Below are positions 6,084 to 57,413 of a stretch of DNA of 64,000 nucleotides, piece by piece. Source of the DNA: a virus; IMG/VR virus record IMGVR_UViG_3300045988_115142. The stretch is one strand, 5' to 3'. Below the pieces are notes generated by a model that had not been told where the DNA came from, searched no databases, and was given only the letters and a program-made list of their open reading frames with translations. Each line of letters starts with the position of its first letter. Within the stretch, counting starts at the first letter, position 1. Position numbers and translations under genes: made by a program.

Positions 6084-6203
6084 TAGTTTGGAGCAGCAAT
6101 GTACGCTTAAGGAAGAAGATACTAGTTTGGCATTAAACGTACAGTATTAAGAGTCATGTTAAGTAGTGTAAGACAGAAAGGTCCACAAGGAGCTTTAGTT
6201 TGG
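6084..6203 (+). repeat. three direct copies of TAGTTTGG (iteron-like)
   Basis: Copies at 6084-6091, 6123-6130 and 6196-6203, read directly from the sequence. Confidence 0.7.
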
Positions 6204-6521: not shown

Positions 6522-6602
6522 CAATATAGTTCTCAAATTAAAATGTAAAGTTGCTCTAACACGACCATAAGAGACACTTTAAGACAATTTTAGGGGGATA
6601 AT

Positions 6603-20728: not shown

Positions 20729-23422
20729 ATGATTAAACATATTGAAAAACGTGACGGGAGTATTGTTGAATTTGACCGTACTAAAATTTTAAATGCAATT
20801 CTTAATGCTATGAATTCTGTGGGTGCTGTAGATGAAGAAGCAGCCAACAATACAACCACAGCTGTAGTTCGTAATTTAAATAAATTAGATTCCGATACAG
20901 CTGCTGTAGAAGATGTACAAGATTTAGTTGAAGTTCAATTAATGAAGAAATATCCAGACGTTGCTCGTGAATATATCACATACCGTAAACGTCGTAATGA
21001 TATTCGTACAGCTAAAACAGAAACAATGAAAGAAGTTATGAGTATTCTTAAATGCGAAGACGTCAAAAACTCTAATGCTAACGTTGATGAATACTCCTTT
21101 GGTGGTCGTAAGAAAGAAGCATCTGATGTAATTCAAAAAGAAATTGCATTGAATACTCTTATCGACCCAGACATTGCTGAAGCTCACCGCAAAGGTATTC
21201 TTTACATTCATGACTTATCTGAATATGCAGTAGGTCTTCATAACTGTTTGAATGCCGATATTGCTTATTGCTTAGCTCATGGTTTCGAAGCTCGTAACGG
21301 TGGTGTCCGTCCAGCTAATTCCTTTGCAACAGCATGTCAATTAATTGCAGTTATTTTCCAAATTCAATCCCAATGTCAATTCGGTGGTATTGCAACTACT
21401 AAGATTGACTTTGACTTAGCTCCATATGTACGTATTTCCTTCTTGAAACATTTCAAACGTGGTTTACGTTACTTTGGTACAGGTGTTGGTAACGATTATG
21501 ATACATTCGTATCTAAATATGGTAAAGATGTAGTCAATACAGCATCCATCGAAGCTGATTGGAATATCTTCAAAGACTTCTGTACTCCAGCATACATTTA
21601 TGCTTTAGAAGAACTCGAACGCGAGGGTAAACAAGGTGCTCAAGCACTTTATCACAACTTAAATACTTTAGAATCTCGTGCTGGTTCTCAAGTACCATTC
21701 ACTTCCATTAACTTTGGTTTAGATACTTCTTGGGAAGGTCGTAAAGCTACACAATGGATGATGAATGCATCTCTTGATGGTATTGGTATTAACCATACTA
21801 CTTCCATCTTCCCTATTTCCATCTTTGTTTATAAGAAAGATGTAAATGACCGTCCTGGTACAGACAACTATGATTTGAAGAAACTTGCTATCAAATCTTT
21901 AACTAAACGTATTTATCCTAACTTCGTAAATGCTGATTGGCAATCCAATGTTCCAGATGTACACCCAATTCGTATTGTAAATAAAACAGTATTCCATCCA
22001 ATTGAATCTGAAGTAACTTTACGTATTGACCATCATGTTGGCGAAACTAAAGTATTTGATCCATTGAACTTCAAGAAAACTTTAGTAAGCGATTATGACA
22101 AACTTACTTTGAAACGATTGATTAATTCTATTCCTGAAGAATATGTATCTGCTCCAGATGAAGATGGTATCCAAGTAATAGATCTTCGCTTCACTGATAG
22201 ACGTTATTTGATTAAAGATTCAACTTCTAAATTCAATAAATACAATACTGATCGTAATGATCATTATACTAAATTGAATTGGTTAGCTGTAGATACAGAA
22301 ACTAATGAAGTAGCAATCACCACAGAATCTTTCAATTACGATATCGAATGTACTGAAGAAGAAGGTCCTTACAAAGCTAAAGTACTTCGTACAATGCAAC
22401 TCCCTAAACCTGAATACAATAACGATACAGAAATGTCTACCATGGGTTGCAGAACGCTAGTTGGTTATGACTTACATGGTATGGGTTATCAAAAGACTGG
22501 TCGTGGTAACTGTACACCTGTAACTATTAACTTAGCTCGTATTGGTATTCGTCATGGTATTTGCTTAGGTGAACGTAAAGAAGCTGATATTGATGGTTTC
22601 TTCAAAGAACTTGACGAAATCTTGGAAATGTGTGAACGTGAACTTCTTAAACGTTTCGAACACATCTGTTCTCAAGATATTCGTTCTGGTTTCTTCACTT
22701 ACCATAACCATGTAGCTGCTGATACCGAAGCTGCTCTTGAGAAGGGTTCCATTTATGAAACAATGAGACACTTCTCTCAAGCATTAGGTTACATTGGTGT
22801 GGCTAATATGTGCTATGCTATGTTTGGTAAATACCATAACCAAGATAAAGACGTATTGAAATTCGCTGTATCTGTAGTTAAACATATTGCAGACTATGCT
22901 GATGAATGCAAGAAACGTCATAACTTGAACTTCGCAGCATATGCTACTCCTGCAGAATCAACTTGTTTAACTTTAGCTTCCAAACTTCAAAAAGAATTTG
23001 GTAAGATTAAAGGTGTATGTGATCGTGAGTACTTAACTAACTCCCATCATGTTCCAGTATATGAAAACATTTCCGTTCGTGATAAAATTGATACAGAAGC
23101 TGAATTCTCCATCTATCCAACAGCTGGTTGTATAATGTACGCTGAAATGTCCTCTGGTGTAATTGGTAATCCTAGAGCAGTAGAAAAGATTATTGATTAT
23201 GCTATGGCTGACACTCGTGTTCCATACTTCGCTATCAACTTCCCAATCGATAGCTGTGATGATTGTGGATACACTGGTGAAATCAATACAGATACTTGCC
23301 CAGTTTGTGGTTCTACTAATATCAACCGTTTACGTCGTGTAACTGGTTATATTACTACAGACTATCGCAAATTCAACAAAGGTAAATTCTGTGAAGTTAA
23401 TGACCGAGTAAAACACATTTAA
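20729..23422 (+). CDS. nrdD: anaerobic ribonucleoside-triphosphate reductase (class III), with N-terminal ATP-cone and a ~164-aa internal insertion
   Basis: ATP-cone IEKRDGSIVEFDRTKI, active-site STMGCR, C-terminal Zn site CDDCGY...CPVCGS, and glycyl-radical motif RRVTGYIT. Confidence 0.93.
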   Translation: MIKHIEKRDGSIVEFDRTKILNAILNAMNSVGAVDEEAANNTTTAVVRNLNKLDSDTAAVEDVQDLVEVQLMKKYPDVAREYITYRKRRNDIRTAKTETMKEVMSILKCEDVKNSNANVDEYSFGGRKKEASDVIQKEIALNTLIDPDIAEAHRKGILYIHDLSEYAVGLHNCLNADIAYCLAHGFEARNGGVRPANSFATACQLIAVIFQIQSQCQFGGIATTKIDFDLAPYVRISFLKHFKRGLRYFGTGVGNDYDTFVSKYGKDVVNTASIEADWNIFKDFCTPAYIYALEELEREGKQGAQALYHNLNTLESRAGSQVPFTSINFGLDTSWEGRKATQWMMNASLDGIGINHTTSIFPISIFVYKKDVNDRPGTDNYDLKKLAIKSLTKRIYPNFVNADWQSNVPDVHPIRIVNKTVFHPIESEVTLRIDHHVGETKVFDPLNFKKTLVSDYDKLTLKRLINSIPEEYVSAPDEDGIQVIDLRFTDRRYLIKDSTSKFNKYNTDRNDHYTKLNWLAVDTETNEVAITTESFNYDIECTEEEGPYKAKVLRTMQLPKPEYNNDTEMSTMGCRTLVGYDLHGMGYQKTGRGNCTPVTINLARIGIRHGICLGERKEADIDGFFKELDEILEMCERELLKRFEHICSQDIRSGFFTYHNHVAADTEAALEKGSIYETMRHFSQALGYIGVANMCYAMFGKYHNQDKDVLKFAVSVVKHIADYADECKKRHNLNFAAYATPAESTCLTLASKLQKEFGKIKGVCDREYLTNSHHVPVYENISVRDKIDTEAEFSIYPTAGCIMYAEMSSGVIGNPRAVEKIIDYAMADTRVPYFAINFPIDSCDDCGYTGEINTDTCPVCGSTNINRLRRVTGYITTDYRKFNKGKFCEVNDRVKHI

Positions 23423-30966: not shown

Positions 30967-31707
30967 ATGGCTATAACTAAGAAACAACGTCATGATGTAG
31001 AGATGTTGATATACAAAGTTATGGATACTTTAGACCCAACAGAACAGAACTCTGCTTGGTATAAAGAGAAATTCCGTAATATGAATGACGATCAGTTCTA
31101 TAAATTCTTCCAACAAGAATTCCCTATTAAATTCCAAATGAAAGTATTCGAAATCGAACCTAATTTGGAACAAATGTATGCGGTAATGGATAATATCCTC
31201 CATGTACCAGTAATGGAGAATGTTAATCTACCATTCTTATATAGAAATAAAGACGGTAAACCTGTAGGAACTAACTACAAAGCAACCGTAGTTTATGTCC
31301 CAATGAAAAAGATGAAACAGTTCTTGGCTAAAAAGAACTCCATGTCTATCAATATCGACGAACGTAATATGAAAACAGGACGTTTATTAGGTGCAGATAA
31401 GAACGGTAACACTTCTGACCGTGAATTTGAATGTATGGCTGTAATGGGTTTAGAGAAAACTATGAAAGAGTTCTCTACTTATAGAGCTGATACTGTAAAT
31501 GCTAAAAACGAGTTCTACAATACAATAGCGACTAAAGGTATGGTATCATTAGATGATGTCGATGTATCTGTAGACGACTCTATTTCTCGTAATACGTTAA
31601 ATGCATATCTTATTGGTGCTGGTATTAATACAAACCTTATCAATATTGGTAATTACTTACCAGGTACTGTAAAAGGTAAAGAAGCTGTCAAAATTAAGCG
31701 TCAATAA
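30967..31707 (+). CDS. stand-alone RNAP beta-subunit C-terminal module-like protein
   Basis: Hand alignment to the recalled E. coli RpoB C-terminus. [10 protein letters not shown] matches [48 protein letters not shown] matches [61 protein letters not shown] matches ESFNVLLKEIRSLGINIEL. Confidence 0.5.
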   Translation: [246 protein letters not shown]

Positions 31708-31722
31708 TAGTGAATTTAACTG

Positions 31723-31737
31723 TATATTATATTCTTG
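31723..31737 (+). promoter_or_regulatory. variant motif TATATTATA-N3-TTG
   Basis: TATATTATATTCTTG, then ATAAG. Begins 16 nt after the upstream stop. Confidence 0.3.
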
Positions 31738-31782
31738 ATAAGTCTATTGAAAATTTAAATATAGAAAAGGAGGTGTAGACTT

Positions 31783-31911
31783 ATGTCCGAAGATAAAAAT
31801 CAAGTAGGTGTTATCCATGAAGTGGGTGACTTTGGTTTAATTGGTGAATTGTCCCAAGAGGATCAAAAAGCCTTTAAAGAAAAAGACAAAAAAGAAAATA
31901 AGGCTGAATAA
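31783..31911 (+). CDS. 42-aa hypothetical acidic/lysine-rich protein
   Basis: Hand-found ORF, MSEDKNQVGVIHEVGDFGLIGELSQEDQKAFKEKDKKENKAE. AAAGGAGG SD upstream; followed by terminator 31922-31950. Confidence 0.45.
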   Translation: MSEDKNQVGVIHEVGDFGLIGELSQEDQKAFKEKDKKENKAE

Positions 31912-31921
31912 TTTTAAAGTT

Positions 31922-31950
31922 AGGTGCTCTACTATATTGGTAGAGCACCT
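31922..31950 (+). terminator. intrinsic terminator
   Basis: AGGTGCTCTAC-TATATTG-GTAGAGCACCT, then TTTATTATCC. Confidence 0.75.
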
Positions 31951-32037
31951 TTTATTATCCTTTATTACAAAATATTTATCGAAAGGTGGCTGAGTTATTA
32001 AAAGTACGATAAAGGATTGTCTAAAGGAGGAAATACG

Positions 32038-32775
32038 ATGTATAAATTTTTAGAAAAACACAAAGGATTTATGACTAGATTTCTTTGTATTATAATAGCC
32101 GCATTATTGGTATCTAACGTATTCATGTTAGAACGTGCCAGTGCACTTGAAATGAAAATACAAAGTGCTCAAGAACAGATTGAACAACATGACGAATATA
32201 TTAGCAAGCATGTTGAAGAAATAAAAGAAGTTACTAAAGCACAACAAACTGTAAAAAATCATATCGATGCAATGACAAAACATGAAGATGCTATCAATGC
32301 CATTAAAGGTGGTTATGGATACGATTCAGACTTATCAAACAACAACCCATCTTCTCTATTAACAGCTGATGATATGAATAAGATCATCAATTACTGGATA
32401 GAACGGAGAGGTGTATCTAAAGAGTTTGCTGGTAAAGGACAAGCTTTTATCAATGCTTCTATTCAAACAGGAATGAACCCTATCTATATTCTAGCTCATG
32501 CAGCTGCAGAATCTGGTTGGGGTAGTTCTCATTTGGCTAGGACTCGTCACAATTATTTCGGTATCAATGCAGTAGACCAAGATCCTGGTAGAGCTTCTAC
32601 AATGGGTGGAAGTTTAGAAGAAGGTATTACTGCTGGTGCTGATTGGATTAAGCGTCATTTCTATAACAATGGTTATACTTCGCTTAGATCTATGAAACAT
32701 GGTAATTATGCTACCGATCCTAAATGGGCTGGTAATATTTTACATATAATGAATGAAAGTGTTTCAGTATTGTAG
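32038..32775 (+). CDS. peptidoglycan hydrolase, N-acetylglucosaminidase domain, with N-terminal membrane anchor and coiled coil
   Basis: AHAAAESGWGSSHLARTRHNYFGINA matches the glucosaminidase/FlgJ-type signature. TM helix FLCIIIAALLVSNVFML. ATG 32038 follows AAAGGAGGA. Confidence 0.8.
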   Translation: MYKFLEKHKGFMTRFLCIIIAALLVSNVFMLERASALEMKIQSAQEQIEQHDEYISKHVEEIKEVTKAQQTVKNHIDAMTKHEDAINAIKGGYGYDSDLSNNNPSSLLTADDMNKIINYWIERRGVSKEFAGKGQAFINASIQTGMNPIYILAHAAAESGWGSSHLARTRHNYFGINAVDQDPGRASTMGGSLEEGITAGADWIKRHFYNNGYTSLRSMKHGNYATDPKWAGNILHIMNESVSVL

Positions 32776-32789
32776 AAAGGAATTTGAAA

Positions 32790-33941
32790 ATGCTATTAAA
32801 TGCAAAAGTAATTGGCATTGGTGCAGCTGGTAACAAAGCTACTATTGCCTTATTTAAGAAATATCCTGAGATTGCTAAGGATATGGTTTTAATCAACTCT
32901 ACGTTAAAAGATATTCCAGAAGAATATCATGACCGTGCTATTGAATTAGATGGTGAATATCGTGGTTGTGCTAAAGAACGTACAATTGCTAATCAAATGA
33001 TGGTAGATACTCTTAAGAGTGGTCATTTCGAATATGAAAAAGACCCTAAAGATTGTATGACTATCATTGTTACATCTTCTGAAGGTGGTACTGGTTCTGG
33101 TGCATCTGTACTTCTAGCAAACTACTTGCACAAAGTACATGGTACACATATCCACTTCTTCGTATTCACTGGTTTTGAAGACGACGTTCGTGGATTAAAA
33201 AATACAGTAGATCTATTCAAAGAAATGGATGATAGCTTTACAGTAGAAGCTTTATCTAACAAATCTTTCTTAGAAGCTGCTGGTAATAATCGTTTACGTG
33301 CAGAACAATTAGCAAATGAAAAGTTTGCTGATAACGTAAACATCTTATTAGGTGGTACTATTAATAAATCTTCTCAAAATATTGATGAATCCGATTTGTT
33401 AAAAACTGTACGTACACCTGGTTTTATGTATATTGACCGTGTCAATATGACTAAAATCAAAAACTCTGATGATTTCAACCGTCGTATTACTGAAGTAATT
33501 GATGATATGAAATCTTTAGAAACCCAACCATCTGCAAAGCGTATCGCTACAGTTCTTGATGTAAAAGAACGTGCATTAGAATTCATTGACTTTGGTTATG
33601 AAGTTATTAAGAAACGTTTTGGTATGCCTTTCGAAGCATTCTCTCATGTGCAAGACTTACATGAACCTGAATACTTAGATATTATTGTATCTGGTTTGAA
33701 AATGCCTATCAATGAAATCGAAAAGACATACGAAGATTTCAAAGAACGTTCTAAGTTTGTAGATACTACAGCTGATGACTTCTTCAACAAAGAATATGCT
33801 ACTAATGCAGATATCTTTGATACACTTCAAGCAGATGCAACACCGGCAGATGTAGACGCTGCCAAAGATGACTTCTTTAAATCTCTTGGTAAAGATAAAA
33901 AAGAAGAATCTAAGAAAATTAAAGTTGTACAAGACTTTTAG
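32790..33941 (+). CDS. tubulin/FtsZ-superfamily GTPase (PhuZ/TubZ-like)
   Basis: G1 motif KVIGIGAAGNKA, tubulin signature SSEGGTGSGAS, and T7-loop-like QNIDESD. Long acidic/amphipathic C-terminal tail. Confidence 0.85.
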   Translation: MLLNAKVIGIGAAGNKATIALFKKYPEIAKDMVLINSTLKDIPEEYHDRAIELDGEYRGCAKERTIANQMMVDTLKSGHFEYEKDPKDCMTIIVTSSEGGTGSGASVLLANYLHKVHGTHIHFFVFTGFEDDVRGLKNTVDLFKEMDDSFTVEALSNKSFLEAAGNNRLRAEQLANEKFADNVNILLGGTINKSSQNIDESDLLKTVRTPGFMYIDRVNMTKIKNSDDFNRRITEVIDDMKSLETQPSAKRIATVLDVKERALEFIDFGYEVIKKRFGMPFEAFSHVQDLHEPEYLDIIVSGLKMPINEIEKTYEDFKERSKFVDTTADDFFNKEYATNADIFDTLQADATPADVDAAKDDFFKSLGKDKKEESKKIKVVQDF

Positions 33942-33964
33942 AGTCAAACTAAAGGAAGAACATT

Positions 33965-33990
33965 TCCCATACCCAATATTGGGTATGGGA
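33965..33990 (+). terminator. intrinsic terminator after the tubulin-like gene; palindrome family
   Basis: TCCCATACCCAATATTGGGTATGGGA, then GTTCTTTC. Confidence 0.75.
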
Positions 33991-34022
33991 GTTCTTTCGC
34001 AAAATCTATAAGGGGGTAAAGT

Positions 34023-34673
34023 ATGATATATAGTAAACTTAATACTACACGAGATGGTAGAAAACCAAAAGATGTATTGTTTAGTGATACGTATACCGAT
34101 GGAACTGAGAAAGATGTATTATTACGGTTCTTGAATAAATATGATGATAGGGATGAAATAGATATAGACGATATATCTAAATTAATAGCTATATCAGCAC
34201 TAAACGTTAAGTATAAGCTTAGAGGTAAGGGTATAAAGCATTATCTTAGTCCTCGTACTATTGATGGTAAATTACGTAGAACAATCAACAGAGCTTCTAT
34301 TGCTCAAATTAAAGAAATAGTACATGATAGAACTATCAATAAAGAATTCCGAGGGGAATTATTAGAATTCTTAGATGATAGAGTAAATCCATCTAGCCCA
34401 AATTATGGTATTCCATTTAATCTTAACGATAACTGTACTTGGGATGATTACGATTTTAAAGAGGAATTCTCTGATTGTAAAATCAAAGACTTATTTAAAC
34501 TTGGTCTGACTAGAGGAATTATTAGAGTTCCTACTAAAGAGGAATATCTGAATAATTTACTACGTTCCCATAATTTACCATACAGGGTAAGTTGCACTGG
34601 TAAAGGCAATAAACCAATATTCAAGGTTTATGAAGTCAAACCAGAACTTATGGTTATTAAAATTTATAGATAG
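34023..34673 (+). CDS. paralog 1 of a tandem HTH-like protein family
   Basis: Shares DEIDIDDISKLIAISALNV and a C-terminal LFKLGLTRGIIRVPTKEEYLNNLLRSHNLPY block with the next two genes. Confidence 0.7.
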   Translation: MIYSKLNTTRDGRKPKDVLFSDTYTDGTEKDVLLRFLNKYDDRDEIDIDDISKLIAISALNVKYKLRGKGIKHYLSPRTIDGKLRRTINRASIAQIKEIVHDRTINKEFRGELLEFLDDRVNPSSPNYGIPFNLNDNCTWDDYDFKEEFSDCKIKDLFKLGLTRGIIRVPTKEEYLNNLLRSHNLPYRVSCTGKGNKPIFKVYEVKPELMVIKIYR

Positions 34674-34684
34674 GAGAAATTACT

Positions 34685-35413
34685 ATGGATGCAAAGGAAA
34701 TCAAACTAAGAGAAGAATTAGATTCCATTGACGAAACTATGGCTTTAAAAAGAAGAGAAATAGAAGATCTTAAAAAGAAAAAAGAAAAGCTAAAAGTAGA
34801 ACTCGATGATCATATGTATACCAATATGAATACATTGATTTACAACTCCTTAAAATCCGATGACCCGGCTATTGAGTTATTAAATATGGCTAATGATAAA
34901 GACGAATTATCTTTAGATGATGCTGCATTTATTCTTGGTATCACTCCAAATACACTCAGAGCTAGAGTAGATTCTGATCATATAAAGAAATATCGTAGAT
35001 ATGATGCTCATAATACAATAATGAGTAGACTTGAAGTTGGATATATCAAATCCCTTCTCGATATGAAGAAGTCCGATCCAAAGATTCGTGAATGTGTAAA
35101 ATACATTCTAGAATTTTATAATATTACCGGATTTCCTCTTTCTATATCGACACCATTGAAAGAGTTAGAGGCTCCTATTAAGCAGTTTAGAAGTTATAGA
35201 GACATGACAGTTTGCGATCTGATAGCTAAAGGATTTGGTCGTGGTCTCATTACATATCCTCAACACAATACAGTAGAACGTATGCTTTATTCGTATAATA
35301 TTGGTTATAGATTGGGATGGTTGAGATCCAGTTTAAGGGGTCGTACCGTATATAAAAGCATTAAAGATGATACAGTAAGACCAATTAGTGTTTATATTAA
35401 TAAGGAGAAATAA
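34685..35413 (+). CDS. paralog 2 of the tandem family (N-terminal coiled coil + HTH-like)
   Basis: Contains KLREELDSIDETMALKRREIEDLKKKKEKLKVEL (coiled coil), DELSLDDAAFILGITPNTL, and LIAKGFGRGLITYPQHNTVERMLYSYNIGY. Confidence 0.7.
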   Translation: MDAKEIKLREELDSIDETMALKRREIEDLKKKKEKLKVELDDHMYTNMNTLIYNSLKSDDPAIELLNMANDKDELSLDDAAFILGITPNTLRARVDSDHIKKYRRYDAHNTIMSRLEVGYIKSLLDMKKSDPKIRECVKYILEFYNITGFPLSISTPLKELEAPIKQFRSYRDMTVCDLIAKGFGRGLITYPQHNTVERMLYSYNIGYRLGWLRSSLRGRTVYKSIKDDTVRPISVYINKEK

Positions 35414-35414
35414 G

Positions 35415-36122
35415 ATGGACTTCAACTCAAGAGAAGATTTACAAAAAGAATTGAAAAAGGTAGACGATGATATAGCGAAAGCAGAAATAAATCTTACTAC
35501 TTTACGTCTATATAGACAAACTATAGCTGACCGATTAAGTCAAGTAATGGAAAGTAAATGTAAGATTGTCAACGTTGGAGATTTCGACGGCTCTATAGAT
35601 CCTATCAAAGCTTGTTTAAATTCTTTAAATGATTCTGATGAAATTAGAATCGAAGATGTGTCTTACATGTTTGGTATCTCTGTGGCTGTATTATTGACTA
35701 AGATCGATACTAAAGAATTGAGAGTATTCAAATACTCCAATAAAAGAAATAGCCGTACTGGTAAAGTATTGACAGTAAAATACATAAAGAAACTCTTAGA
35801 AGAACATAATAGCGATGATATCAAAAAGCGTAAATATGTAGAATATATATTTAAAGAGTATCATGAAAATGCTATGTCTTTAAATATTAAGAGTAGAGTA
35901 AAAGACCTACTATATAAACCTTATGATAATCCTGAGTATGAAAATTTGACTCTAAAACAACTAATCATTGGTGGTTTTAATCGTGGGTTTATTAAGTTTA
36001 CTCACTATAATACTATGATTAAGATGCTTGATTCTTTCAACTGTGAGTATACTCTAGATTATTCTTCTTACAGAGTTATGGAAAAATCTACAAATAAACT
36101 AATTAGGGTATATTCTAAATAA
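35415..36122 (+). CDS. paralog 3 of the tandem family (N-terminal coiled coil + HTH-like)
   Basis: ATG 35415 sits 7 nt after AAGGAG. Contains DEIRIEDVSYMFGISVAVL and LIIGGFNRGFIKFTHYNTMIKMLDSFNCEY. Confidence 0.7.
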   Translation: MDFNSREDLQKELKKVDDDIAKAEINLTTLRLYRQTIADRLSQVMESKCKIVNVGDFDGSIDPIKACLNSLNDSDEIRIEDVSYMFGISVAVLLTKIDTKELRVFKYSNKRNSRTGKVLTVKYIKKLLEEHNSDDIKKRKYVEYIFKEYHENAMSLNIKSRVKDLLYKPYDNPEYENLTLKQLIIGGFNRGFIKFTHYNTMIKMLDSFNCEYTLDYSSYRVMEKSTNKLIRVYSK

Positions 36123-36128
36123 TATATT

Positions 36129-36150
36129 GGGAGCTGAATATTCAGCTCCC
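36129..36150 (+). terminator. intrinsic terminator
   Basis: GGGAGCTGAATATTCAGCTCCC, then ATATTTTTATTTTTTATTTTTT. Confidence 0.8.
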
Positions 36151-36174
36151 ATATTTTTATTTTTTATTTTTTAA

Positions 36175-36202
36175 TTGACAATTTTATAAATATCCATATT
36201 TT
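36175..36202 (+). promoter_or_regulatory. possible host sigma-A-type promoter
   Basis: TTGACA (36175-36180), a 16-nt spacer, then TATTTT (36197-36202). Lies just after terminator 36129-36150 and 30 nt upstream of ATG 36232. Confidence 0.3.
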
Positions 36203-36231
36203 ATATTTAAATCTAATAAGGAGAATACATT

Positions 36232-37071
36232 ATGAACGGACAATTCGCCACAACAGGGCGATATACATTTGAACAATTACTAGTCATGATGGCTGATATA
36301 GATACTATGTCTTATCATGAACTTTATCGTATCTTGGAAAACTATTATCATGTCATTCTAGAACATTTAGAAGATAGACATTCTAAGAAGTTAATACCTC
36401 TTTATGGTTCACCTAAATTCTTATTCACTCTTCTTCAAGTATTGAATAATACAGAAAGAAGTTCTGAAAGATGTAGATTGGTAAACACATTCCTTAGAAG
36501 TACTTTATTCTCTGAGAATGGACCATATATCCGAGATATTGCTTACTTGATTGCTAAGTTCTATAATTATGACACAGTAGCAAGATTAGAAGCATTAGGT
36601 ACATTAGATGAAGAATTATGTATCTATCTCTCTATTATTTCTAAAGCATCTATTAGAGATTATGTGAATATCAACCGCATCAATTACACTATCTGCTCCT
36701 TTACTAATAGAGATTTAACTCCTATGGAGATAATTCAAATCTATAACGTTCTTTACCCTAGAAACTTTACTGATGTATTCATCAACTCTATGGCAAATGA
36801 TATAGTGGATACAGAGACAACTGATCCATCTATACTTCCAAGAGCTTTACTTATCGAAGAGTCTCTCAAACAAGCCGTATGTATGATTTTAGAAACATTC
36901 GATACTGGTATTATCTCTCAAATACTTATTTCTTATAATGAGTATTGTATGTTTAATGGGAAGAAATCTCCATCTATTCTCAAGTACTGTTCTGATAAAC
37001 TAGGGTATCCTTTCCTCAAAGTTCCTATCATCGTTAGAGAACTAGAAAAGCAAGATATCTTTATCGGATAG
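36232..37071 (+). CDS. hypothetical protein
   Basis: 279-aa ORF with TAAGGAGA SD. Confidence 0.7.
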   Translation: MNGQFATTGRYTFEQLLVMMADIDTMSYHELYRILENYYHVILEHLEDRHSKKLIPLYGSPKFLFTLLQVLNNTERSSERCRLVNTFLRSTLFSENGPYIRDIAYLIAKFYNYDTVARLEALGTLDEELCIYLSIISKASIRDYVNINRINYTICSFTNRDLTPMEIIQIYNVLYPRNFTDVFINSMANDIVDTETTDPSILPRALLIEESLKQAVCMILETFDTGIISQILISYNEYCMFNGKKSPSILKYCSDKLGYPFLKVPIIVRELEKQDIFIG

Positions 37072-37154
37072 AAAATCGTTTTTAATGTAGAGATGTACTC
37101 TATAATACATATAATAAAACACTTATTTTTTATTTAAAATAAAGGAGTAAATCC

Positions 37155-38426
37155 ATGGCAAAAGAAGTTACTGTATACAACAACGATGTAGATTATCAAT
37201 CATCTTTAGCATACGAATTCAGAAATGTAGTATCTAAAGATAAAGATCTTCGTATGTCTTCTGAAGCTAAAATTGATATTGGATATCCAACTGGTTTCTT
37301 GGGCTTTGACTTCATGAATGGTTACAAAGTTCATAATAATGGCGAAACTAAATACAACCTAGGTATCTCTGATGGTAGTATGGTAATGGTAATTGGTCGT
37401 TCTGGTTGTGGTAAATCTACATTCTGTACACAAATGGCGGCTAACATTGTACGTCCATTCAAAACTTCTACAATCTTCGAAGATTCTATCGAAGGTGGTA
37501 TGGTTAAAGAACGCCGTATGCAGTTAAGTGGTTTCAATACAGAAGCTGAATATAAGAAACGTTTTGTAATTCGTAATACTGGTATTACAGCAGAAACTTT
37601 CTTAGCTCGTATTAAATTCATTCATGATTTGAAATTAGCAGATCCTGAAAGATATAAATACGATACTGGTTATGTAGATGAAGAAGGAAACCCAATCAAA
37701 TTATTTGAACCAACGGTTTATATCTTAGACTCCATTGCTTTGATTATGCCAGATGATTTGGTAGAAGAAGGCGAAGTATCTACCAACATGTCTGTTACTC
37801 GTACAGCTAAAGTTGTAACTGATATTATTCGTCGAGTAGTACCTATGCTTAAAATGGCTAATATCATTTTAATCGTAGTAAACCATATCCTTTCTGATGT
37901 ATCTATTCGTCCTAAGAAAGCTGACTTAATGTATTTGAAACAAGGTGAATCTTTACCTCGTGGTAAAACTGTAATCTATCTTTCTAATACAGTAATTCGG
38001 TTAGATGATACTAAACTTAAAGCAGACGAAAAGTTCAAAGTAGCTGGTTCTTTAGTAGATGTAACTAATACTAAGTCTCGTTCAGCTGGTGCTGGTCAAA
38101 CTTCTACAATGGTATTTACTTATGACCACGGTTTTGACCCAGAACTTTCTTTATTTATGCTATTACAAAACAATGGTCGTGTAAACGGTGCTGGTATTGG
38201 TTACTACTTTGATGACCATACTGACTTCAAATTCTCTTTGAAAGGTTTCAAAGAAAAACTTCGTAAAGATCCAGAGTTCTATAAGCTCTTTATGGAAGTA
38301 GCTAAAAGTGAATTAGAAAAATTGCCTTCTAACGCAAACGATATAGTTGATGTAGATGAACAAGATCAAAACGAAAGTAATAATGTTACTTCTGATATTC
38401 TTGGTACAATTGGCATCAAATATTAA
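37155..38426 (+). CDS. RecA/UvsX-family recombinase
   Basis: Walker A GRSGCGKST, Walker B VYILDSIA, and a RecA-like IILIVVNH ... TKSRSAG layout comparable to T4 UvsX. Confidence 0.75.
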   Translation: MAKEVTVYNNDVDYQSSLAYEFRNVVSKDKDLRMSSEAKIDIGYPTGFLGFDFMNGYKVHNNGETKYNLGISDGSMVMVIGRSGCGKSTFCTQMAANIVRPFKTSTIFEDSIEGGMVKERRMQLSGFNTEAEYKKRFVIRNTGITAETFLARIKFIHDLKLADPERYKYDTGYVDEEGNPIKLFEPTVYILDSIALIMPDDLVEEGEVSTNMSVTRTAKVVTDIIRRVVPMLKMANIILIVVNHILSDVSIRPKKADLMYLKQGESLPRGKTVIYLSNTVIRLDDTKLKADEKFKVAGSLVDVTNTKSRSAGAGQTSTMVFTYDHGFDPELSLFMLLQNNGRVNGAGIGYYFDDHTDFKFSLKGFKEKLRKDPEFYKLFMEVAKSELEKLPSNANDIVDVDEQDQNESNNVTSDILGTIGIKY

Positions 38427-47682: not shown

Positions 47683-49215
47683 ATGGAAAAAATCAAATTA
47701 ACAGAAGAACTTGAAAGATTAATTAGTCGTGGTCAATACAATGGTCAAGATGACAAATTAAAAGATGTCATTACAAATGAAGGTGTTTGTAGAAATATCT
47801 TTGCAGATGACGATTCTTTTGATGCGGTAAGTGAATTTACTGTAGATATGCTAGCATTATTATTAGGATACATGGCTGTAAGATTAGGTGAGTTTAACGA
47901 TCCTAATGAATACATTCATACTATTTCTAAATTCGCTGCATTGTTCGATATCGATTCAGCTTCTTATTATGATGAAGAGAAAAAAGATTTTGATTTAGAA
48001 CGATTAGTGTATGATATCGCTACTAAAAATTATGAATCCTATTGGAATTATGATGAAATTTCCAAACACCCAGAAGAATTAGAATTATTCACTAAGGTAT
48101 ACAATAACGATATCCAAACTTTATTGGCTGCTGTAGCTGCTGGTGATAGAAGTATTGCTATGCAAATACTTAATCCAAAAACAATGCTATTCTATAGCAG
48201 CAAACTAATAGCTAAGAAACCTGAAAATGAAGAAGAAGAAATGAAGATGGTTGCTAAATTAGAAACAATGAATGATCTTTCTGTTATTTTAGCAAAAGCT
48301 ATTGGTCTTTATGGTGAAGGTGATAAAGATAAATTATTCCTTGATTCTATTAAGGATAATCCAATTAATAATGTTATGGATCCTGATAGTATTCTTAAAT
48401 TATCTAAGACTCTAATGTCTATTTTCAATGGATATTTAGATTCTCAAGCTGAAGAAGATGGTCCATTCCCAGTATTTAATTTACTAAGTCAAGAAGGTCA
48501 TACCTTCCCATTGACTTTCACACCTAAAGTTGTTGATGACTTCAAATTCTTAGTATCTGTATTGACAATCAAATTATTCTATGATAAGAAAAAATTCAAT
48601 GCAGATACCTTTGATTCTATCTTCCGTCCTAAGGATAAAGAATTAGCTGAAAAGGTATTGGCTAAACTTGTTGAAAGCCCACTATTTAAAGAAACCATAG
48701 TTAAGGATATCGATATCTTTAATGAAAGTGGTGACTTTGATTTATTCGAAGCTCTTCAAGAACTTACAAGTGTAACTAACCCTTGTAATCTATTCTTAAA
48801 ACGTTATGCATTTTATGCAGGATTTGAAGAACTTAGAGAGACTTATGAAACTATAAGATCTATTTTTACTGAAACTAAGGAACAAAAGATCGTCTTCGAT
48901 GCCTTTGAATCTAGACTTCTATTCAACTTATTATATCCTGCATTCATGGCATTCCTAGTAGTCTCTGAAGATCAAGAAATCTATACAGAATTCTTGAAAA
49001 AGACAAGAGAAATTCTTCATGATAATATTGGAGAAGAAAAGCGGAATGTTTCTCTACTAGCAGCTTCCTATAATATAGTAGCAGACGATGAATTCTTCGA
49101 AATCTGTACTCTAGCTCAAAAGATTGATGAATTATCTGCCAGAGCTGTTGAAGATTGTGAGATCGATGAATTACCTGATAACGTTGTCAAATTCGATAGA
49201 AGCAAATTAAGCTAA
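47683..49215 (+). CDS. hypothetical protein (predominantly helical by composition)
   Basis: 510-aa ORF with TAGGAGGA SD. Confidence 0.75.
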   Translation: MEKIKLTEELERLISRGQYNGQDDKLKDVITNEGVCRNIFADDDSFDAVSEFTVDMLALLLGYMAVRLGEFNDPNEYIHTISKFAALFDIDSASYYDEEKKDFDLERLVYDIATKNYESYWNYDEISKHPEELELFTKVYNNDIQTLLAAVAAGDRSIAMQILNPKTMLFYSSKLIAKKPENEEEEMKMVAKLETMNDLSVILAKAIGLYGEGDKDKLFLDSIKDNPINNVMDPDSILKLSKTLMSIFNGYLDSQAEEDGPFPVFNLLSQEGHTFPLTFTPKVVDDFKFLVSVLTIKLFYDKKKFNADTFDSIFRPKDKELAEKVLAKLVESPLFKETIVKDIDIFNESGDFDLFEALQELTSVTNPCNLFLKRYAFYAGFEELRETYETIRSIFTETKEQKIVFDAFESRLLFNLLYPAFMAFLVVSEDQEIYTEFLKKTREILHDNIGEEKRNVSLLAASYNIVADDEFFEICTLAQKIDELSARAVEDCEIDELPDNVVKFDRSKLS

Positions 49216-49320: not shown

Positions 49321-51570
49321 ATGAGACCGTATCCATTGATGAAAAATTACAAACGCACCGACCATTCAAATCTCATCGATGCTCTCCGGGAATGGAAATC
49401 ATTCTCTGACAATGTTGAAAACAACTTTGAACAAGCTACTTTTATTTTTTCTCAAGCCCTTAAAGGAATTGATGAATTAGAAGCTAGTAATGAATTTAGA
49501 GGAAAGAACGATTATATTTTCTCCCTAATTCACACTGCGTCGAGGTTCTATAATATAGCATTAGATGAGTATATCAAACTTTCCGGTAAGTTTAAACCAA
49601 CTAAGTATTTAGAACTACTTCATTTATATCTTAAAGATTCTAAATCAGGTGAAGGTTATATCAAAAAAGAGTATGAATTATATACTATGGGTTTAGCTGC
49701 TAAACGTGTCGAAGAAAACCATAATATTATTCAAAAACGTTTTGATATCAAATCTATTATCGTCAAATTACTTGGTATCGATGAAGAAGGTTCTGATATT
49801 TATTATAAATATAGATATATCGTTCCAATCCTTGGGGTTCATCTTGCTTCTTTGATTGATACTTATAGAATGGATCCTGTTCAAAAAGCTGTCTTGACTA
49901 TTGAAGAACTTCACTACGTTATCAAATATATTGAAAGAAATTCCAAAGAAGAATGTTTCTCTACTATATTCGATAATATCTTAGGACCTGCATTCTATTA
50001 TATCAATGCATATAAAGATACAGATAATGAAGTTACTTTAGAAGATATTGTAGATGAATTATTAAAGGCTAATTGGATTCCTTTCGATGGTAAACAATAT
50101 CTAAAGAATAGTTTTAGTGAATTTGAAGATCGTATTAAAGAATACAAAGGTTTAGTTCCTGTATGGGCTAATGGTATAACTGCAAATGTAGTTTGTTATA
50201 TCTTAAAAACTTATGCAGAAGATAATACTATTGGTAGACCTAAGTCTTTCTTCAACTTTATCAACGAAGAAGATTACCCTATGGAAATCAAAGGTATTGA
50301 AGTAGATTATACTGATAAAATTTTCCTTTATACTATCCTAACTATCTTACCTATTCTTTATACAGATAAAACAGCAGAGGGTACTCATATTGATGATCCT
50401 ATAGCTATAGAAGTATTCGTTAAAAAACGAATCAAAGAATCTAAATCTACTAAACTTGTATGTGATGCTATCAGATTCTCTTCATATATCATTGGTCTAG
50501 TATGTGGCAATGAAAAATTAGGTAATTTCTTAAGAAGTATTGCCGATGAATATATGATTGCAGAAGAAAAGAAAGAAGAAAAAATGGACGCAATTGATCA
50601 TGCTCTAATGAGACCTTCATACATTAAATGTGCTGAAATGGCAGAAGAAGCCGCTGAGATTATTTCTCTATCTGAAGAGTATTCCTCTGCTCCTAAATTT
50701 AATATTTGTCAAGATACAATTATTAAATTCCCAGAAGCAATTCCATTCTTTGAATACTATGCTCGTACTTATCCAGAACACCTCGACAGAGATATTCTAT
50801 TAAATAGAGCAGAATTGGTAATTAAAGAAAATGCTATCTCTAGTAAGATGGATATGGATCTTGCTGCTAATATCTCTAAAGTAAATACATATCGTAATCG
50901 TCTAGTAGAAACTGTTAAAGTAGATGATCCTGTAGAATACTTCCGAAACTTCACAGAAGCTACTCAATTAATGGAAGATATCATGGCTTTCATTGAATCA
51001 TATGACTCTGATTTTGATGATGACTACGATGATGACGATGACGAAAAAGAAGAATTAACTCCTAAGCAAAAACAAGAACAAAAGAAAAAAGTTGAAGCAA
51101 CTAAGAAAAGTCTTCTTAGTAGAATGGCTGATGTTCTAGCTAAAGCTGGTGGTGCTGTTGAAAAGGTAAAACCTAAGCTTAAATCTGTCAGTAGTAAAAT
51201 TATCGATGTTTTAGCCAATATTACTACTATGGGTGATGAAGAAAAGATCGCTCAATTAAAGACAAAGATCTTACCTAACCTTAGAAATATCTTGATGGTA
51301 ATCGTAACAGCTGGTTTAGCTATTACAACACCATATCTTTTGGTATTGGTATTAGTAATTAACGCTATTAGCACAACAAATACTTCCGTTGAAACTAAGA
51401 AGATCGTTAAAGATGAACTTGATGTAGAATTGGGTATTGTTGAAAAGAAACTCAATACAGCTGACCTTACTGAAAGTGATGAAAAGAAACTTCTTATGCT
51501 TAAGAGTAAAATCAATCGTCAAATTGAACGTATTGATAAAGAAATTGAAAAGGCTAAATCCAAGAAATAG
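49321..51570 (+). CDS. hypothetical large protein with acidic patch, one TM segment and C-terminal coiled coil
   Basis: 749-aa ORF with GGGAGGA SD. Contains DSDFDDDYDDDDDEKEE and the TM segment ILMVIVTAGLAITTPYLLVLVLVINAI. Confidence 0.75.
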   Translation: MRPYPLMKNYKRTDHSNLIDALREWKSFSDNVENNFEQATFIFSQALKGIDELEASNEFRGKNDYIFSLIHTASRFYNIALDEYIKLSGKFKPTKYLELLHLYLKDSKSGEGYIKKEYELYTMGLAAKRVEENHNIIQKRFDIKSIIVKLLGIDEEGSDIYYKYRYIVPILGVHLASLIDTYRMDPVQKAVLTIEELHYVIKYIERNSKEECFSTIFDNILGPAFYYINAYKDTDNEVTLEDIVDELLKANWIPFDGKQYLKNSFSEFEDRIKEYKGLVPVWANGITANVVCYILKTYAEDNTIGRPKSFFNFINEEDYPMEIKGIEVDYTDKIFLYTILTILPILYTDKTAEGTHIDDPIAIEVFVKKRIKESKSTKLVCDAIRFSSYIIGLVCGNEKLGNFLRSIADEYMIAEEKKEEKMDAIDHALMRPSYIKCAEMAEEAAEIISLSEEYSSAPKFNICQDTIIKFPEAIPFFEYYARTYPEHLDRDILLNRAELVIKENAISSKMDMDLAANISKVNTYRNRLVETVKVDDPVEYFRNFTEATQLMEDIMAFIESYDSDFDDDYDDDDDEKEELTPKQKQEQKKKVEATKKSLLSRMADVLAKAGGAVEKVKPKLKSVSSKIIDVLANITTMGDEEKIAQLKTKILPNLRNILMVIVTAGLAITTPYLLVLVLVINAISTTNTSVETKKIVKDELDVELGIVEKKLNTADLTESDEKKLLMLKSKINRQIERIDKEIEKAKSKK

Positions 51571-56726: not shown

Positions 56727-57413
56727 ATGGATACTACTATTAAATACGTAACTAAGAACTTTATTGAATTTGAAGTATTATTTGATTTAGATTTGGCTAT
56801 AGCTCAGTATATCTTATTGAATACTAAGAATACTAATTTCATTGATAAATCTATTAGGGAATCCAAGGTAGAGATCACTAATAATTATCTTAAGAATAAG
56901 CTACTATATAGAAAGTATGATAATCCATTATCTGCAGTATTGGATAATAAATACAAAGATAGCTTTGACGACATATTGGAATCTATCATGAAAGATCACG
57001 CTGATGATGTATATGAAAGAATTATTCCTACAGATCTATTACAAGCTATCAATGCTATGGGTGTAGCTGATGATATTATCAAATCTAGAATCAAATGTAA
57101 TAACGAAAAACAAGTCAATATAGTTGAGAAATATTCTGAGGTATTGGAGACAGTTAGAACCAATGAATTATTCGAAGATTCTACTTCTCTATTTATCAAA
57201 TACCTTAATAATATTCAAGATTATGCTCCTATTGGTGGTAAATACATTTATATCGTTAAAGGTAATTACAATCTAGGTCCAAATTTTCTCCCAAGTCCAG
57301 TTGTAACTATATTGGGAGAACAAAATGTAATACGGATGGTTGATATCTATTCCAATATCACTATTCCAGAAGTAAACTTGGAGGATTATATTAATGAACA
57401 CAGCAAGAATTAA
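56727..57413 (+). CDS. hypothetical protein
   Basis: 228-aa ORF. Overlaps the chaperonin gene start by 20 nt. Confidence 0.7.
   Translation: MDTTIKYVTKNFIEFEVLFDLDLAIAQYILLNTKNTNFIDKSIRESKVEITNNYLKNKLLYRKYDNPLSAVLDNKYKDSFDDILESIMKDHADDVYERIIPTDLLQAINAMGVADDIIKSRIKCNNEKQVNIVEKYSEVLETVRTNELFEDSTSLFIKYLNNIQDYAPIGGKYIYIVKGNYNLGPNFLPSPVVTILGEQNVIRMVDIYSNITIPEVNLEDYINEHSKN

What the first reader, a model, noticed from the sequence alone, without database searches (positions are those of the whole stretch)
32790..36122. Tubulin/FtsZ-family GTPase followed by three tandem paralogous HTH-like / coiled-coil genes: a possible cytoskeletal positioning module
The gene at 32790..33941 has all the polymerising-GTPase hallmarks: GIGAAGNKA, GGTGSGAS, a T7-loop NIDESD, and a long C-terminal tail.

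After its terminator come three consecutive paralogs (34023, 34685, 35415). They share a DE(I/L)x(I/L)xD(I/V/A)(S/A)xxxGI helix-turn-helix-like block and a conserved C-terminal block, (D/Q)L(F/I)xxGxxRGxIxxxxxxxxxxxLxSxNxxY. Two of them add an N-terminal coiled coil.

Known tubulin-based systems pair the filament with DNA-binding adaptors: TubR, plus TubY in Clostridium phage c-st. PhuZ phages instead position a nucleus-like compartment. The N-terminus here looks more FtsZ/TubZ-like than PhuZ-like (KVIGIGAAGN...INSTLKDI). So this may be a TubZ-type DNA or compartment positioning system with a new, triplicated adaptor family in a Gram-positive jumbo phage. I saw no obvious iterated centromere next to the genes. 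The TAGTTTGG repeats at 6084-6203 are the only iteron-like element noticed.
Basis: partly seen in the sequence, partly recalled or inferred. Interest (0 to 1): 0.75.

Follow-up and report, generated by a model that had tools for sequence, protein, structure and literature searches.

The report
Phage tubulin beside a hypervariable gene cassette
A genuine, conserved tubulin-like filament gene of an uncultured giant phage lies next to three fast-evolving, strain-specific DNA-binding-type genes. Those three genes were inserted beside it in a single lineage, so the two are neighbours rather than a proven working pair.

Summary
32790..33941 encodes a tubulin/FtsZ-fold GTPase with every quoted motif. 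34023, 34685 and 35415 start three true tandem paralogs.

The tubulin is a core gene of a large uncultured jumbo-phage clade that carries a split multisubunit RNA polymerase:
- 838 protein clusters match it.
- It has no BLAST-level match in 50,697 phage genome records.
- Its best structural match is phage c-st TubZ.

The "adaptor module" reading is not supported:
- The paralogs occur only in one ~255-kb phage lineage. They are absent from ten related loci that carry the same tubulin.
- In most of those relatives the tubulin is followed by a conserved 273-298-aa orphan protein (p279).
- Within the lineage the tubulin stays 98-99% identical (dN/dS 0.02-0.04). The paralogs fall to 36-54% identity, with both dN and dS raised. 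Copy number is 3 or 4.
- A sister lineage has two Bro-N genes in the same slot.
- The paralogs show no significant similarity to TubR or TubY. No centromere-like iterons lie nearby.

Best reading: a conserved cytomotive tubulin, plus an unrelated hypervariable accessory cassette. The cassette encodes proteins with a coiled coil, a winged helix-turn-helix of the MerR/Xis type and an orphan C-terminal domain. These are probably strain-specific DNA-binding host-interaction or regulatory factors.

The parts
32790..33941 (+). Tubulin/FtsZ-fold GTPase, 383 aa. Motif positions: T1 GIGAAGNKA at nt 32814-32840; GCAKER at 32964-32981; T4 GGTGSGAS at 33084-33107; T7 NIDESD at 33378-33395. The flexible C-terminal tail starts at about aa 322 and carries conserved motifs: VDTTADDFF (33759-33785), IFDTL (33813-33827), AKDDFF (33861-33878) and a terminal DF.
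33964..33991 (+). Perfect-palindrome hairpin with a 12-bp stem and an AATATT centre, followed by a T-rich tail. It is the terminator-like element after the tubulin and marks the left boundary of the hypervariable island. A relative that lacks the cassette (L011) has an equivalent hairpin after its tubulin.
34023..34673 (+). Paralog A, 216 aa. It has no N-terminal coiled coil. The HTH block DEIDIDDISKLIAIS is at nt 34152-34196 and the C-terminal block at 34488-34583.
34685..35413 (+). Paralog B, 242 aa. Predicted long helix at aa 3-46; winged HTH at about aa 74-117 (HTH block nt 34901-34945); helical region at aa 118-203 holding the invariant G183, R186 and G187 (C-terminal block nt 35216-35308); three-stranded sheet at aa 208-237.
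35415..36122 (+). Paralog C, 235 aa, with an N-terminal coiled-coil-like helix. HTH block at nt 35637-35681 and C-terminal block at 35958-36050. This is the most mosaic and recombinant of the three across strains.
36128..36151 (+). Second perfect-palindrome hairpin (10-bp stem, AATATT centre) followed by a T-run. It marks the right boundary of the cassette.
36232..37071 (+). p279, an orphan protein. In six related loci (L011, L012, L015, L019, L020 and, after two inserted genes, L001) its homolog is the conserved gene downstream of the tubulin. The cassette splits this pair in the window.
32038..32775 (+). Glucosaminidase with a hydrophobic N-terminal segment and a coiled-coil-like stretch (inferred from the sequence, not tested). 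It ends 14 nt before the tubulin ATG. It lies just upstream of the tubulin in L001, L002, L011, L012 and L020, and one gene away in L019. L015-L018 gave no BLASTP match within the stretches held.

Best explanation
Two unrelated things lie next to each other.

(1) The tubulin. The 383-aa protein is a polymerising tubulin/FtsZ-fold GTPase with intact T1, T4 and T7 loops. It is a strongly constrained core gene of a large clade of uncultured jumbo phages of about 200-310 kb that carry split multisubunit RNA polymerases. By inference it forms GTP-dependent cytomotive filaments that position replicating phage DNA or assembling particles in the infected cell. Its conserved acidic/aromatic tail motifs would mediate filament contacts or recruit a partner that is conserved across the clade.

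(2) The triplet. The three genes between the two hairpins are a lineage-restricted, hypervariable accessory cassette, inserted between the tubulin and its ancestral downstream neighbour p279. Each encodes a MerR/Xis-type (HTH_17-like) winged helix-turn-helix plus an orphan C-terminal domain. B, C and the occasional fourth copy also have an N-terminal coiled coil, which probably makes them oligomers. By inference they bind DNA. Deep allelic divergence maintained by recombination marks them as strain-specific host-interaction, anti-defence or regulatory factors, not dedicated tubulin adaptors.

Shown: fold, motifs, paralogy, distribution, synteny and evolutionary rates. Inferred: filament function, DNA binding and the arms-race role.
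For: Tubulin:
- Motifs are present.
- AF2 pLDDT is 87. Foldseek gives c-st TubZ at E 7e-19 with target-normalised TM-score 0.80.
- The family profile matches c-st TubZ at probability 96% and FtsZ at 1e-10.
- 838 clusters match, many on 200-310-kb contigs.
- dN/dS is 0.02-0.04.
- The tail motifs are conserved in relatives with and without the cassette.

Cassette:
- The family has only 70 hits, or 12 representatives among 1.84e9 proteins.
- It is present in L004, L005, L007 and L009. It is absent from L001, L002, L011, L012 and L015-L020.
- The order in most relatives is tubulin, p279, UvsX-like recombinase, RNAP beta.
- Nucleotide identity to sister strains is 0.91-0.97 across the tubulin gene, 0.50-0.71 across 34100-36100, then 0.82-0.95 beyond.
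- Paralog amino-acid identity is 36-54% while the tubulin is 98-99%.
- Paralog dN is 0.35-0.64, dS about 1.0-1.4 and dN/dS 0.26-0.49. Flanking genes have dS of 0.1-0.75.
- L009 has four copies. Alleles are mosaic.
- L001 carries two Bro-N genes in the same slot.

HTH:
- HTH_17 is hit weakly by 8 of 31 members.
- The only distant profile hits, P0196 and P0197, are bona fide HTH_17 proteins.
- The model shows a strand-helix-helix-hairpin layout.
- The best BFVD matches are HTH or MerR-like proteins.

No link to the tubulin:
- Strains whose paralogs differ at about half their residues differ at only 2-8 tubulin positions (D341E is inside the DIFDTL tail motif, D356E two residues before AKDDFF, and both are conservative).
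- hhalign of the paralog profile gives probability 0.8% against TubY and 0.1% against TubR.
Against: - Adjacency to the tubulin holds in every genome that has the cassette.
- The gap of about 30 nt after the first hairpin leaves no obvious room for a separate promoter. The triplet may therefore be read through from the tubulin transcript.
- c-st TubZ is the best structural match of this tubulin. It is followed by TubY, a 239-aa MerR-type HTH plus coiled-coil protein of similar size. TubY sequences are poorly conserved (PMC7762940), so an analogous, non-homologous role cannot be excluded.
- A few residues (D71, D73, E74, K122, G183, R186, G187 in B) are invariant despite the hypervariability. 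They could form a conserved interface.
- No direct evidence exists for DNA binding or for an arms-race function. Overall dN/dS is below 1.
Confidence: 0.7

Rival explanations
1. The three paralogs are TubR/TubY-like DNA-binding adaptors or modulators that couple the tubulin filament to phage DNA or to a compartment, forming one positioning module.
For: - They lie immediately downstream of the tubulin, on the same strand and tightly packed.
- They carry a MerR-superfamily HTH and a coiled coil.
- The c-st locus has TubZ followed by a 239-aa MerR-type TubY.
- c-st TubZ is the top structural match of this tubulin.
- TubY is known to be poorly conserved in sequence (PMC7762940).
Against: - They are absent from ten related loci with the same tubulin and the same conserved tail motifs.
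- The family is restricted to one lineage.
- There is no co-variation with the tubulin.
- Divergence of both dN and dS is extreme relative to the tubulin.
- Domain order is the reverse of TubY, and there is no lysine-rich tail (PMC7762940).
- hhalign probability is below 1% against both TubY and TubR.
- No small TubR-like gene and no tubC-like iterons are present.
- A sister lineage fills the same slot with Bro-N genes.
Confidence: 0.12
2. The paralogs are selfish mobile genes: homing-endonuclease-like or other site-specific DNA enzymes with an HTH targeting domain. They invaded an intergenic hotspot and duplicated there.
For: - The site is an insertion slot between conserved genes.
- Copy number varies between 3 and 4.
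- Acidic and lysine residues (D71, D73, E74, K122) are invariant.
- Alleles are mosaic.
Against: - No nuclease family appears in Pfam, PHROGs or PADLOC.
- No significant structural match exists. The LAGLIDADG enzyme I-DmoI appears only at E >= 0.77.
- There are no other copies in the 64-kb window.
- Gene order A-B-C and orthology are stable across strains.
- The invariant acidic residues sit at the N-cap of the HTH, and similar acidic residues precede the HTH in the ordinary HTH_17 proteins P0196 and P0197.
Confidence: 0.06
3. The triplet encodes ordinary phage transcription regulators (for example temporal-class switches). They drift fast because they are under weak constraint, with no role in conflict with the host.
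For: - The HTH and coiled-coil architecture fits a regulator.
- dN/dS is 0.26-0.49, which is below 1.
- The genes sit among replication and transcription genes.
Against: - dS is raised 3-4 fold over the tubulin gene. This points to old alleles kept and exchanged, not simple drift.
- An essential regulator would be expected in sister clades, but it is absent there.
- Paralog number varies.
Confidence: 0.12

Closest known systems
TubZ of Clostridium botulinum phage c-st (type III TubZRC partition system; PDB 3v3t, 4xcq)
   Same: - It is the best structural match: Foldseek E 7e-19, target-normalised TM-score 0.80.
- Profile-sequence homology is supported at probability 96%.
- Both share the G-C-G/A-K-E-R motif after T2, and both have a flexible C-terminal tail.
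- Both are followed by an HTH plus coiled-coil protein of about 240 aa.
   Different: - Sequence identity is only 14-16%.
- The window has no TubR gene, no tubC iterons and no TubY homolog.
- The host element looks like a jumbo phage with its own RNA polymerase, not a plasmid-prophage.
- The tail carries acidic/aromatic FF motifs.
PhuZ of Chimalliviridae (phiKZ gp39, 201phi2-1 gp59, Goslar)
   Same: - Both are phage-encoded tubulins in a jumbo phage with a multisubunit RNAP.
- There is a weak hit to PHROG 4733 'tubulin PhuZ' at 1.8e-6.
- Goslar PhuZ appears in the Foldseek list at rank 36.
- Both have a C-terminal tail with acidic residues.
   Different: - hhalign against phiKZ PhuZ gives probability 2%.
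- tblastn finds no match to any phage genome record, including all chimalliviruses.
- No chimallin-like ORF is detectable in the window.
- The RNAP beta subunit is closest (34% identity) to the chimallin-less AR9/PBS1 group (PMC10299810).
TubY (MerR-like modulator of type III partition; PMC7762940)
   Same: It is of similar size, has a MerR-superfamily HTH and a coiled coil, and is encoded downstream of the tubulin gene in c-st.
   Different: - In TubY the HTH is N-terminal, followed by a tetrameric coiled coil and a Lys/Phe amphipathic tail.
- In the paralogs the coiled coil comes first, then the HTH, then a globular alpha/beta domain.
- hhalign aligns only 21 HTH columns, at probability 0.8%.
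BRO-type multigene families and hyperplastic accessory regions of large DNA phages
   Same: - Both are tandem paralogous DNA-binding-type genes in a slot between conserved core genes.
- Both show presence/absence and copy-number variation and extreme divergence.
- A sister lineage has two Bro-N genes in the very same slot.
   Different: There is no Bro-N, KilA-N or ANT domain. The C-terminal domain has no detectable relative anywhere.

Membership tests
Tubulin/FtsZ superfamily GTPase | T1 glycine-rich loop, T4 signature GGGTG(S/T)G and T7 loop NxDxx(D/E) | tested here: met
   GIGAAGNKA (aa 9-17), EGGTGSGAS (aa 98-106) and NIDESD (aa 197-202) are present. G99-G104, N197, D199 and D202 are invariant in 44 family members.
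Tubulin/FtsZ superfamily GTPase | Two-domain fold: a nucleotide-binding domain and a C-terminal activation domain | tested here: met
   AF2 pLDDT 87, pTM 0.82. More than 1000 PDB matches at E <= 1e-3; all 50 listed are TubZ, CetZ, FtsZ or PhuZ.
Tubulin/FtsZ superfamily GTPase | GTP-dependent polymerisation into filaments | not testable with these tools
   Requires biochemistry or imaging.
TubZRC type III partition system | TubZ-type tubulin | tested here: inconclusive
   c-st TubZ is the top structural hit and hhalign gives probability 96%. However, plain hmmsearch of the PDB lists only FtsZ and CetZ among tubulin homologs, and identity is 14-17%.
TubZRC type III partition system | A small winged-helix centromere-binding protein, TubR, encoded with tubZ | tested here: not met
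   The upstream genes are a glucosaminidase and an RNAP fragment. The paralog profile against c-st TubR gives probability 0.1%.
TubZRC type III partition system | An iterated centromere, tubC, next to the operon | tested here: not met
   There are no iterons or tandem arrays in 31500-37500. The TAGTTTGG cluster lies 26 kb away and is not enriched window-wide.
TubY | N-terminal MerR HTH, then a C-terminal tetrameric coiled coil, then a Lys/Phe amphipathic tail (PMC7762940) | tested here: not met
   Domain order is reversed and the C-terminus is a globular domain. hhalign gives probability 0.8%. c-st TubY hits MerR_1 at 1.5e-11, whereas the paralogs hit no MerR model.
PhuZ (Chimalliviridae) | Sequence membership in the PhuZ family | tested here: inconclusive
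   PHROG 4733 at E 1.8e-6 over aa 8-210. Against that, hhalign versus phiKZ PhuZ gives probability 2% and tblastn finds no match in any phage genome.
PhuZ (Chimalliviridae) | Co-occurrence with the nuclear-shell protein chimallin | tested here: inconclusive
   phmmer with phiKZ gp54 against all window ORFs gives a best E of 0.72. Only 64 kb of a genome of about 255 kb is held.
HTH_17 / MerR-Xis type winged helix-turn-helix | Match to the family model and a strand-helix-helix-wing topology | tested here: inconclusive
   The best Pfam E-value is 0.006, below the gathering score, in 8 of 31 members. The reverse profile search finds true HTH_17 proteins at 2e-5 and 6e-4. The model has E74-76, H77-83, H88-94, E100-104 and E112-117. 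BFVD HTH matches reach probability 0.94 but E >= 0.01.
Hypervariable accessory cassette between core genes | Presence/absence among relatives, sharp drop of identity at the boundaries, and variable copy number | tested here: met

The most novel reading that the evidence does not exclude
The tubulin defines a third kind of phage tubulin system, neither TubZRC nor the PhuZ-chimallin spindle. It would operate in jumbo phages with multisubunit RNA polymerases that infect anaerobic, low-GC hosts. Its real partners would be the conserved neighbours: p279 downstream and the membrane-anchored glucosaminidase upstream. In one lineage the filament would additionally have acquired strain-variable, TubY-like HTH/coiled-coil modulators that tie it to different DNA targets.
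Probability: 0.12. Interest if true: 0.7.

Novelty: new variant of a known kind. Interest (0 to 1): 0.4.

Why it matters
Phage tubulins have been studied in two settings: TubZRC partition of plasmid-prophages, and PhuZ spindles that position the chimallin nucleus.

This tubulin belongs to a large family known only from metagenomes. It is about 15% identical to any solved homolog. Its phages have polymerase genes closest to the chimallin-less AR9/PBS1 group. Finding out what this filament positions would show whether cytoskeletal organisation of infection extends beyond nucleus-forming phages.

The neighbouring cassette is a clear example of a recombining hypervariable island inside an otherwise 90-99% conserved core. 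It is a good place to look for strain-specific host-interaction or anti-defence factors. It also shows that adjacency alone can suggest a module that comparative genomics does not support.

Tried and rejected
- Megablast of 32000-37000 and tblastn of the tubulin against 50,697 phage records gave no match.
- phmmer of the tubulin alone against PDB sequences found nothing relevant. The family profile was needed.
- Foldseek of the paralog B model against the PDB gave nothing at E < 0.01; the menin, ScpAB and I-DmoI hits are noise. BFVD gave only weak HTH and Bro hits.
- An exhaustive profile search of 1.84e9 representatives found no distant paralog relatives beyond generic HTH_17 proteins.
- PADLOC and Pfam scans gave no family for the paralogs beyond weak HTH and coiled-coil hits, and none for p279. 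PHROGs gave only two weak hits for paralog B (phrog_66 at 0.0052, phrog_3865 at 0.0077). The p279 profile against the PDB gave nothing.
- hhalign of the paralog profile against the two slot proteins of L001 showed no homology.
- Looking for chimallin: phiKZ gp54 against window ORFs was negative. tblastn of the large orphan ORFs 47683-49215 and 49321-51570 against phages gave no match. This is not informative for the whole genome.
- The genome-contig scan for a host returned only four MAG contigs with unreliable bin labels.
- Rfam and tRNA scans of the window found nothing.


Full report
**1. What is in the sequence**

The region holds four same-strand ORFs exactly as described:
- a 383-aa protein at 32790..33941, counted from the ATG; an upstream TTG at 32784 is unlikely to be the start because homologs are 383 aa;
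- three tightly packed ORFs at 34023..34673 (A, 216 aa), 34685..35413 (B, 242 aa) and 35415..36122 (C, 235 aa).

A perfect-palindrome hairpin with a T-rich tail follows the first gene at 33964-33991. A second one follows gene C at 36128-36151. Terminator-like sites are enriched in 31500-37500: 6 were found against 1.7 expected.

**2. The tubulin**

Sequence models recognise it only weakly:
- Pfam Tubulin scores E 5.5e-6, below the gathering score.
- PHROG 4733 'tubulin PhuZ' scores 1.8e-6.

An AlphaFold2 model built on 44 family members is confident (pLDDT 87, pTM 0.82). It has a low-confidence tail (pLDDT below 50 at 343-351 and 365-383).

Foldseek against the PDB returns only tubulin-superfamily proteins among its 50 listed matches:
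- phage c-st TubZ first (E 7e-19, target-normalised TM-score 0.80);
- then CetZ, B. thuringiensis and B. cereus TubZ, and FtsZ;
- Goslar PhuZ at rank 36;
- all at 13-17% identity.

Profile comparisons agree:
- hhalign against c-st TubZ gives probability 96%, E 1.7e-9, and shows a shared GC(G/A)KER motif.
- hhalign against phiKZ PhuZ gives probability 2%.
- hmmsearch of PDB sequences gives FtsZ at 1e-10 as the best hit.

The protein belongs to a large family known only from metagenomes:
- 838 clusters match at E <= 1e-3, and many sit on contigs of 200-310 kb.
- None of 50,697 phage genome records matches at BLAST sensitivity.

**3. The genome around it**

The window is the replication and transcription region of a jumbo phage. 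It encodes:
- a DnaB-like helicase and a Dda-like helicase;
- both topoisomerase II subunits;
- an anaerobic ribonucleotide reductase (NrdD);
- a UvsX-like recombinase;
- an NAD-dependent ligase;
- a primase;
- a GroEL;
- fragments of a split multisubunit RNA polymerase.

The RNAP beta subunit is closest (34% identity) to the AR9/PBS1 group. That group is used in the literature as the example of phages with a multisubunit RNAP but no chimallin (PMC10299810).

No window ORF resembles phiKZ chimallin. Only about a quarter of the genome is available, so this says little about the whole phage.

Host hints are limited to MAG bin labels: Tenericutes, Solobacterium and Acidaminococcales.

**4. The paralogs**

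Pairwise BLASTP confirms paralogy: B-C 2e-24, A-B 2e-8, A-C 2e-5.

The AlphaFold2 model of B is confident (pLDDT 88) and shows four parts:
- a 44-residue N-terminal helix;
- a strand-helix-helix-hairpin unit at aa 74-117;
- a helical region carrying the invariant G183, R186 and G187;
- a three-stranded sheet.

The HTH assignment rests on several weak but consistent lines:
- HTH_17 is hit by 8 of 31 members, best E 0.006.
- The only distant hits of the family profile in 1.84 billion representatives are two bona fide HTH_17 proteins.
- The best BFVD matches are HTH or MerR-like phage proteins.

The full architecture, and the C-terminal domain in particular, has no match in the PDB or BFVD at E < 0.009.

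**5. Do the four genes form a module?**

Comparative genomics says no.

*(a) Distribution.*
- The paralog family has only 70 hits in 5.8 billion clusters and 12 representatives in the exhaustive search.
- All four loci examined come from one phage lineage of about 255 kb whose tubulin is 98-99% identical to the window's.

*(b) Relatives.*
- Ten related loci have tubulins 39-67% identical to the window's (L001, L002, L011, L012, L015-L020). Their conserved genes keep the same order.
- None of the eight searched by BLASTP has a paralog homolog, and the gene tables of L019 and L020 show none either.
- In most of them the tubulin is followed by a homolog of p279 (window 36232..37071), sometimes only 20-26 nt downstream.
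- The triplet is therefore an insertion between the tubulin and p279.
- In L001 the same slot holds two Bro-N genes, which are unrelated to the paralogs.

*(c) Evolutionary rates.*
- Against sister strains L005, L007 and L009, nucleotide identity is 0.91-0.97 through the tubulin gene. It drops to 0.50-0.71 from about 34100 to 36100. It returns to 0.82-0.95 afterwards.
- The tubulin has dN/dS 0.02-0.04 and dS 0.21-0.32.
- The paralogs have dN 0.35-0.64, dS about 1.0-1.4 and dN/dS 0.26-0.49.
- The raised dS shows that the alleles are older than their flanks. They have been kept and exchanged by recombination. The mosaic C alleles and the window-L004 comparison, where only C differs, fit this.
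- L009 carries four copies.

*(d) No co-variation.*
- Strains whose paralogs differ at about half their residues differ at only 2-8 tubulin positions, nearly all conservative.
- The tail motifs (VDxSKDxFF, FDTL/FDM, aKxxFF and a terminal acidic-aromatic pair) are conserved in relatives that lack the cassette.

*(e) No homology to known adaptors.*
- The c-st locus was fetched: TubR CST190, TubZ CST189, TubY CST188.
- The paralog profile gives probability 0.8% against TubY, aligning 21 generic HTH columns, and 0.1% against TubR.
- TubY is defined by an N-terminal MerR HTH, a C-terminal tetrameric coiled coil and a Lys/Phe tail (PMC7762940). The paralogs have the opposite order and a globular C-terminus.

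*(f) No centromere.* No iterons or tandem arrays lie near the genes.

**6. What keeps the adaptor idea alive**

- The cassette always sits right after the tubulin.
- The 30-nt gap after the first hairpin leaves little room for a promoter. Some co-transcription with the tubulin is therefore plausible.
- The parallel with c-st is real: its TubZ is followed by an HTH plus coiled-coil protein of about 240 aa.
- A handful of residues remain invariant in the otherwise hypervariable proteins.

I rate this reading at about 0.12. At most it would be a lineage-specific add-on, not the partner of this tubulin family.

**7. Most likely mechanism**

The tubulin has intact nucleotide-binding and T7 activation loops. 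It very probably forms GTP-dependent filaments.
- Its strong constraint and its core position among replication genes suggest that it organises phage DNA or particle assembly in the cell.
- Its conserved tail motifs would act in filament contacts or in recruiting a partner conserved across the clade. p279 is a candidate by synteny alone.

The cassette proteins are most likely oligomeric DNA-binding proteins under diversifying or balancing selection. They would act as strain-specific regulators, host-takeover factors or counter-defence factors. They behave like BRO-type multigene families and like other hyperplastic regions of large phages.

Fold, distribution and rates are shown here. DNA binding, oligomerisation and the biological role are inferred.

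**8. Novelty and score**

- The tubulin is a divergent new branch of a known kind (phage tubulins).
- The cassette is an orphan family in a familiar evolutionary setting.
- The proposed new 'triplicated adaptor' module is not supported.
- Interest is moderate (0.4). It comes mainly from the unstudied tubulin clade, which may sit in chimallin-less jumbo phages of anaerobes, and from the sharply bounded hypervariable island.

Noticed in passing
window 5560-6600: A noncoding stretch of about 1 kb lies upstream of a 374-aa orphan ORF and the DnaB-like helicase. It holds all three window copies of TAGTTTGG (6084, 6123, 6196) within 120 nt, and a hairpin at about 6040-6070. The window-wide count is not above chance (3 found, 2.1 expected), but the clustering is striking. 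It could be an origin or a regulatory region.
   Followed up: partly
window 32038-32775, and L001, L002, L011, L012, L019, L020: A glucosaminidase with a hydrophobic N-terminal segment and a coiled-coil-like stretch (read from the sequence, not tested) sits directly upstream of the tubulin, 14 nt away in the window. It is adjacent in five relatives and one gene away in L019, but was not found in L015-L018. A peptidoglycan hydrolase next to an FtsZ-like protein is an intriguing pairing. It may, however, only reflect general synteny of the core block.
   Followed up: partly
window 36232-37071; L011 3941-4762; L012 7305-8201; L019 7194-8024; L020 7197-8057; L015 6455-7300; L001 10612-11463: The orphan protein p279 is the conserved gene downstream of the tubulin across the clade (18-36% identity, with six invariant residues including L57, F63, N112, R149 and N151). 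It has no Pfam, PHROG, PADLOC or PDB match. By synteny it is a better candidate tubulin partner than the triplet.
   Followed up: partly
window 31922-31950, 33964-33991, 36128-36151; L011 about 3849-3878: Gene-end hairpins in this phage clade are perfect palindromes. Three of the four are centred on AATATT, and 31922-31950 on TATATT. This suggests a shared terminator or RNA-processing signal.
   Followed up: no
L009 8001-8768: One sister strain carries a fourth paralog (255 aa, with a coiled coil) inserted between the tubulin and paralog A.
   Followed up: yes
L001 9396-10323: In a sister lineage whose tubulin is 62% identical, the slot after the tubulin holds two tandem Bro-N domain genes (143 and 161 aa) instead of the triplet. 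The site is therefore a recurrent landing place for tandem DNA-binding-type accessory genes.
   Followed up: yes
window 47683-49215, 49321-51570, 52641-54587: There are three large ORFs without a Pfam or PHROG family. Two have no tblastn match in any phage genome record. The 648-aa ORF lies in a locally GC-rich stretch (0.39) and matches PDB 7x30 'Major structural protein ORF12' at 2e-10, so it is probably a virion structural protein.
   Followed up: partly
window 20729-23422 and 57394-59196: An anaerobic ribonucleotide reductase (NrdD) and a GroEL-like chaperonin are encoded here. The NrdD suggests an anaerobic host.
   Followed up: no
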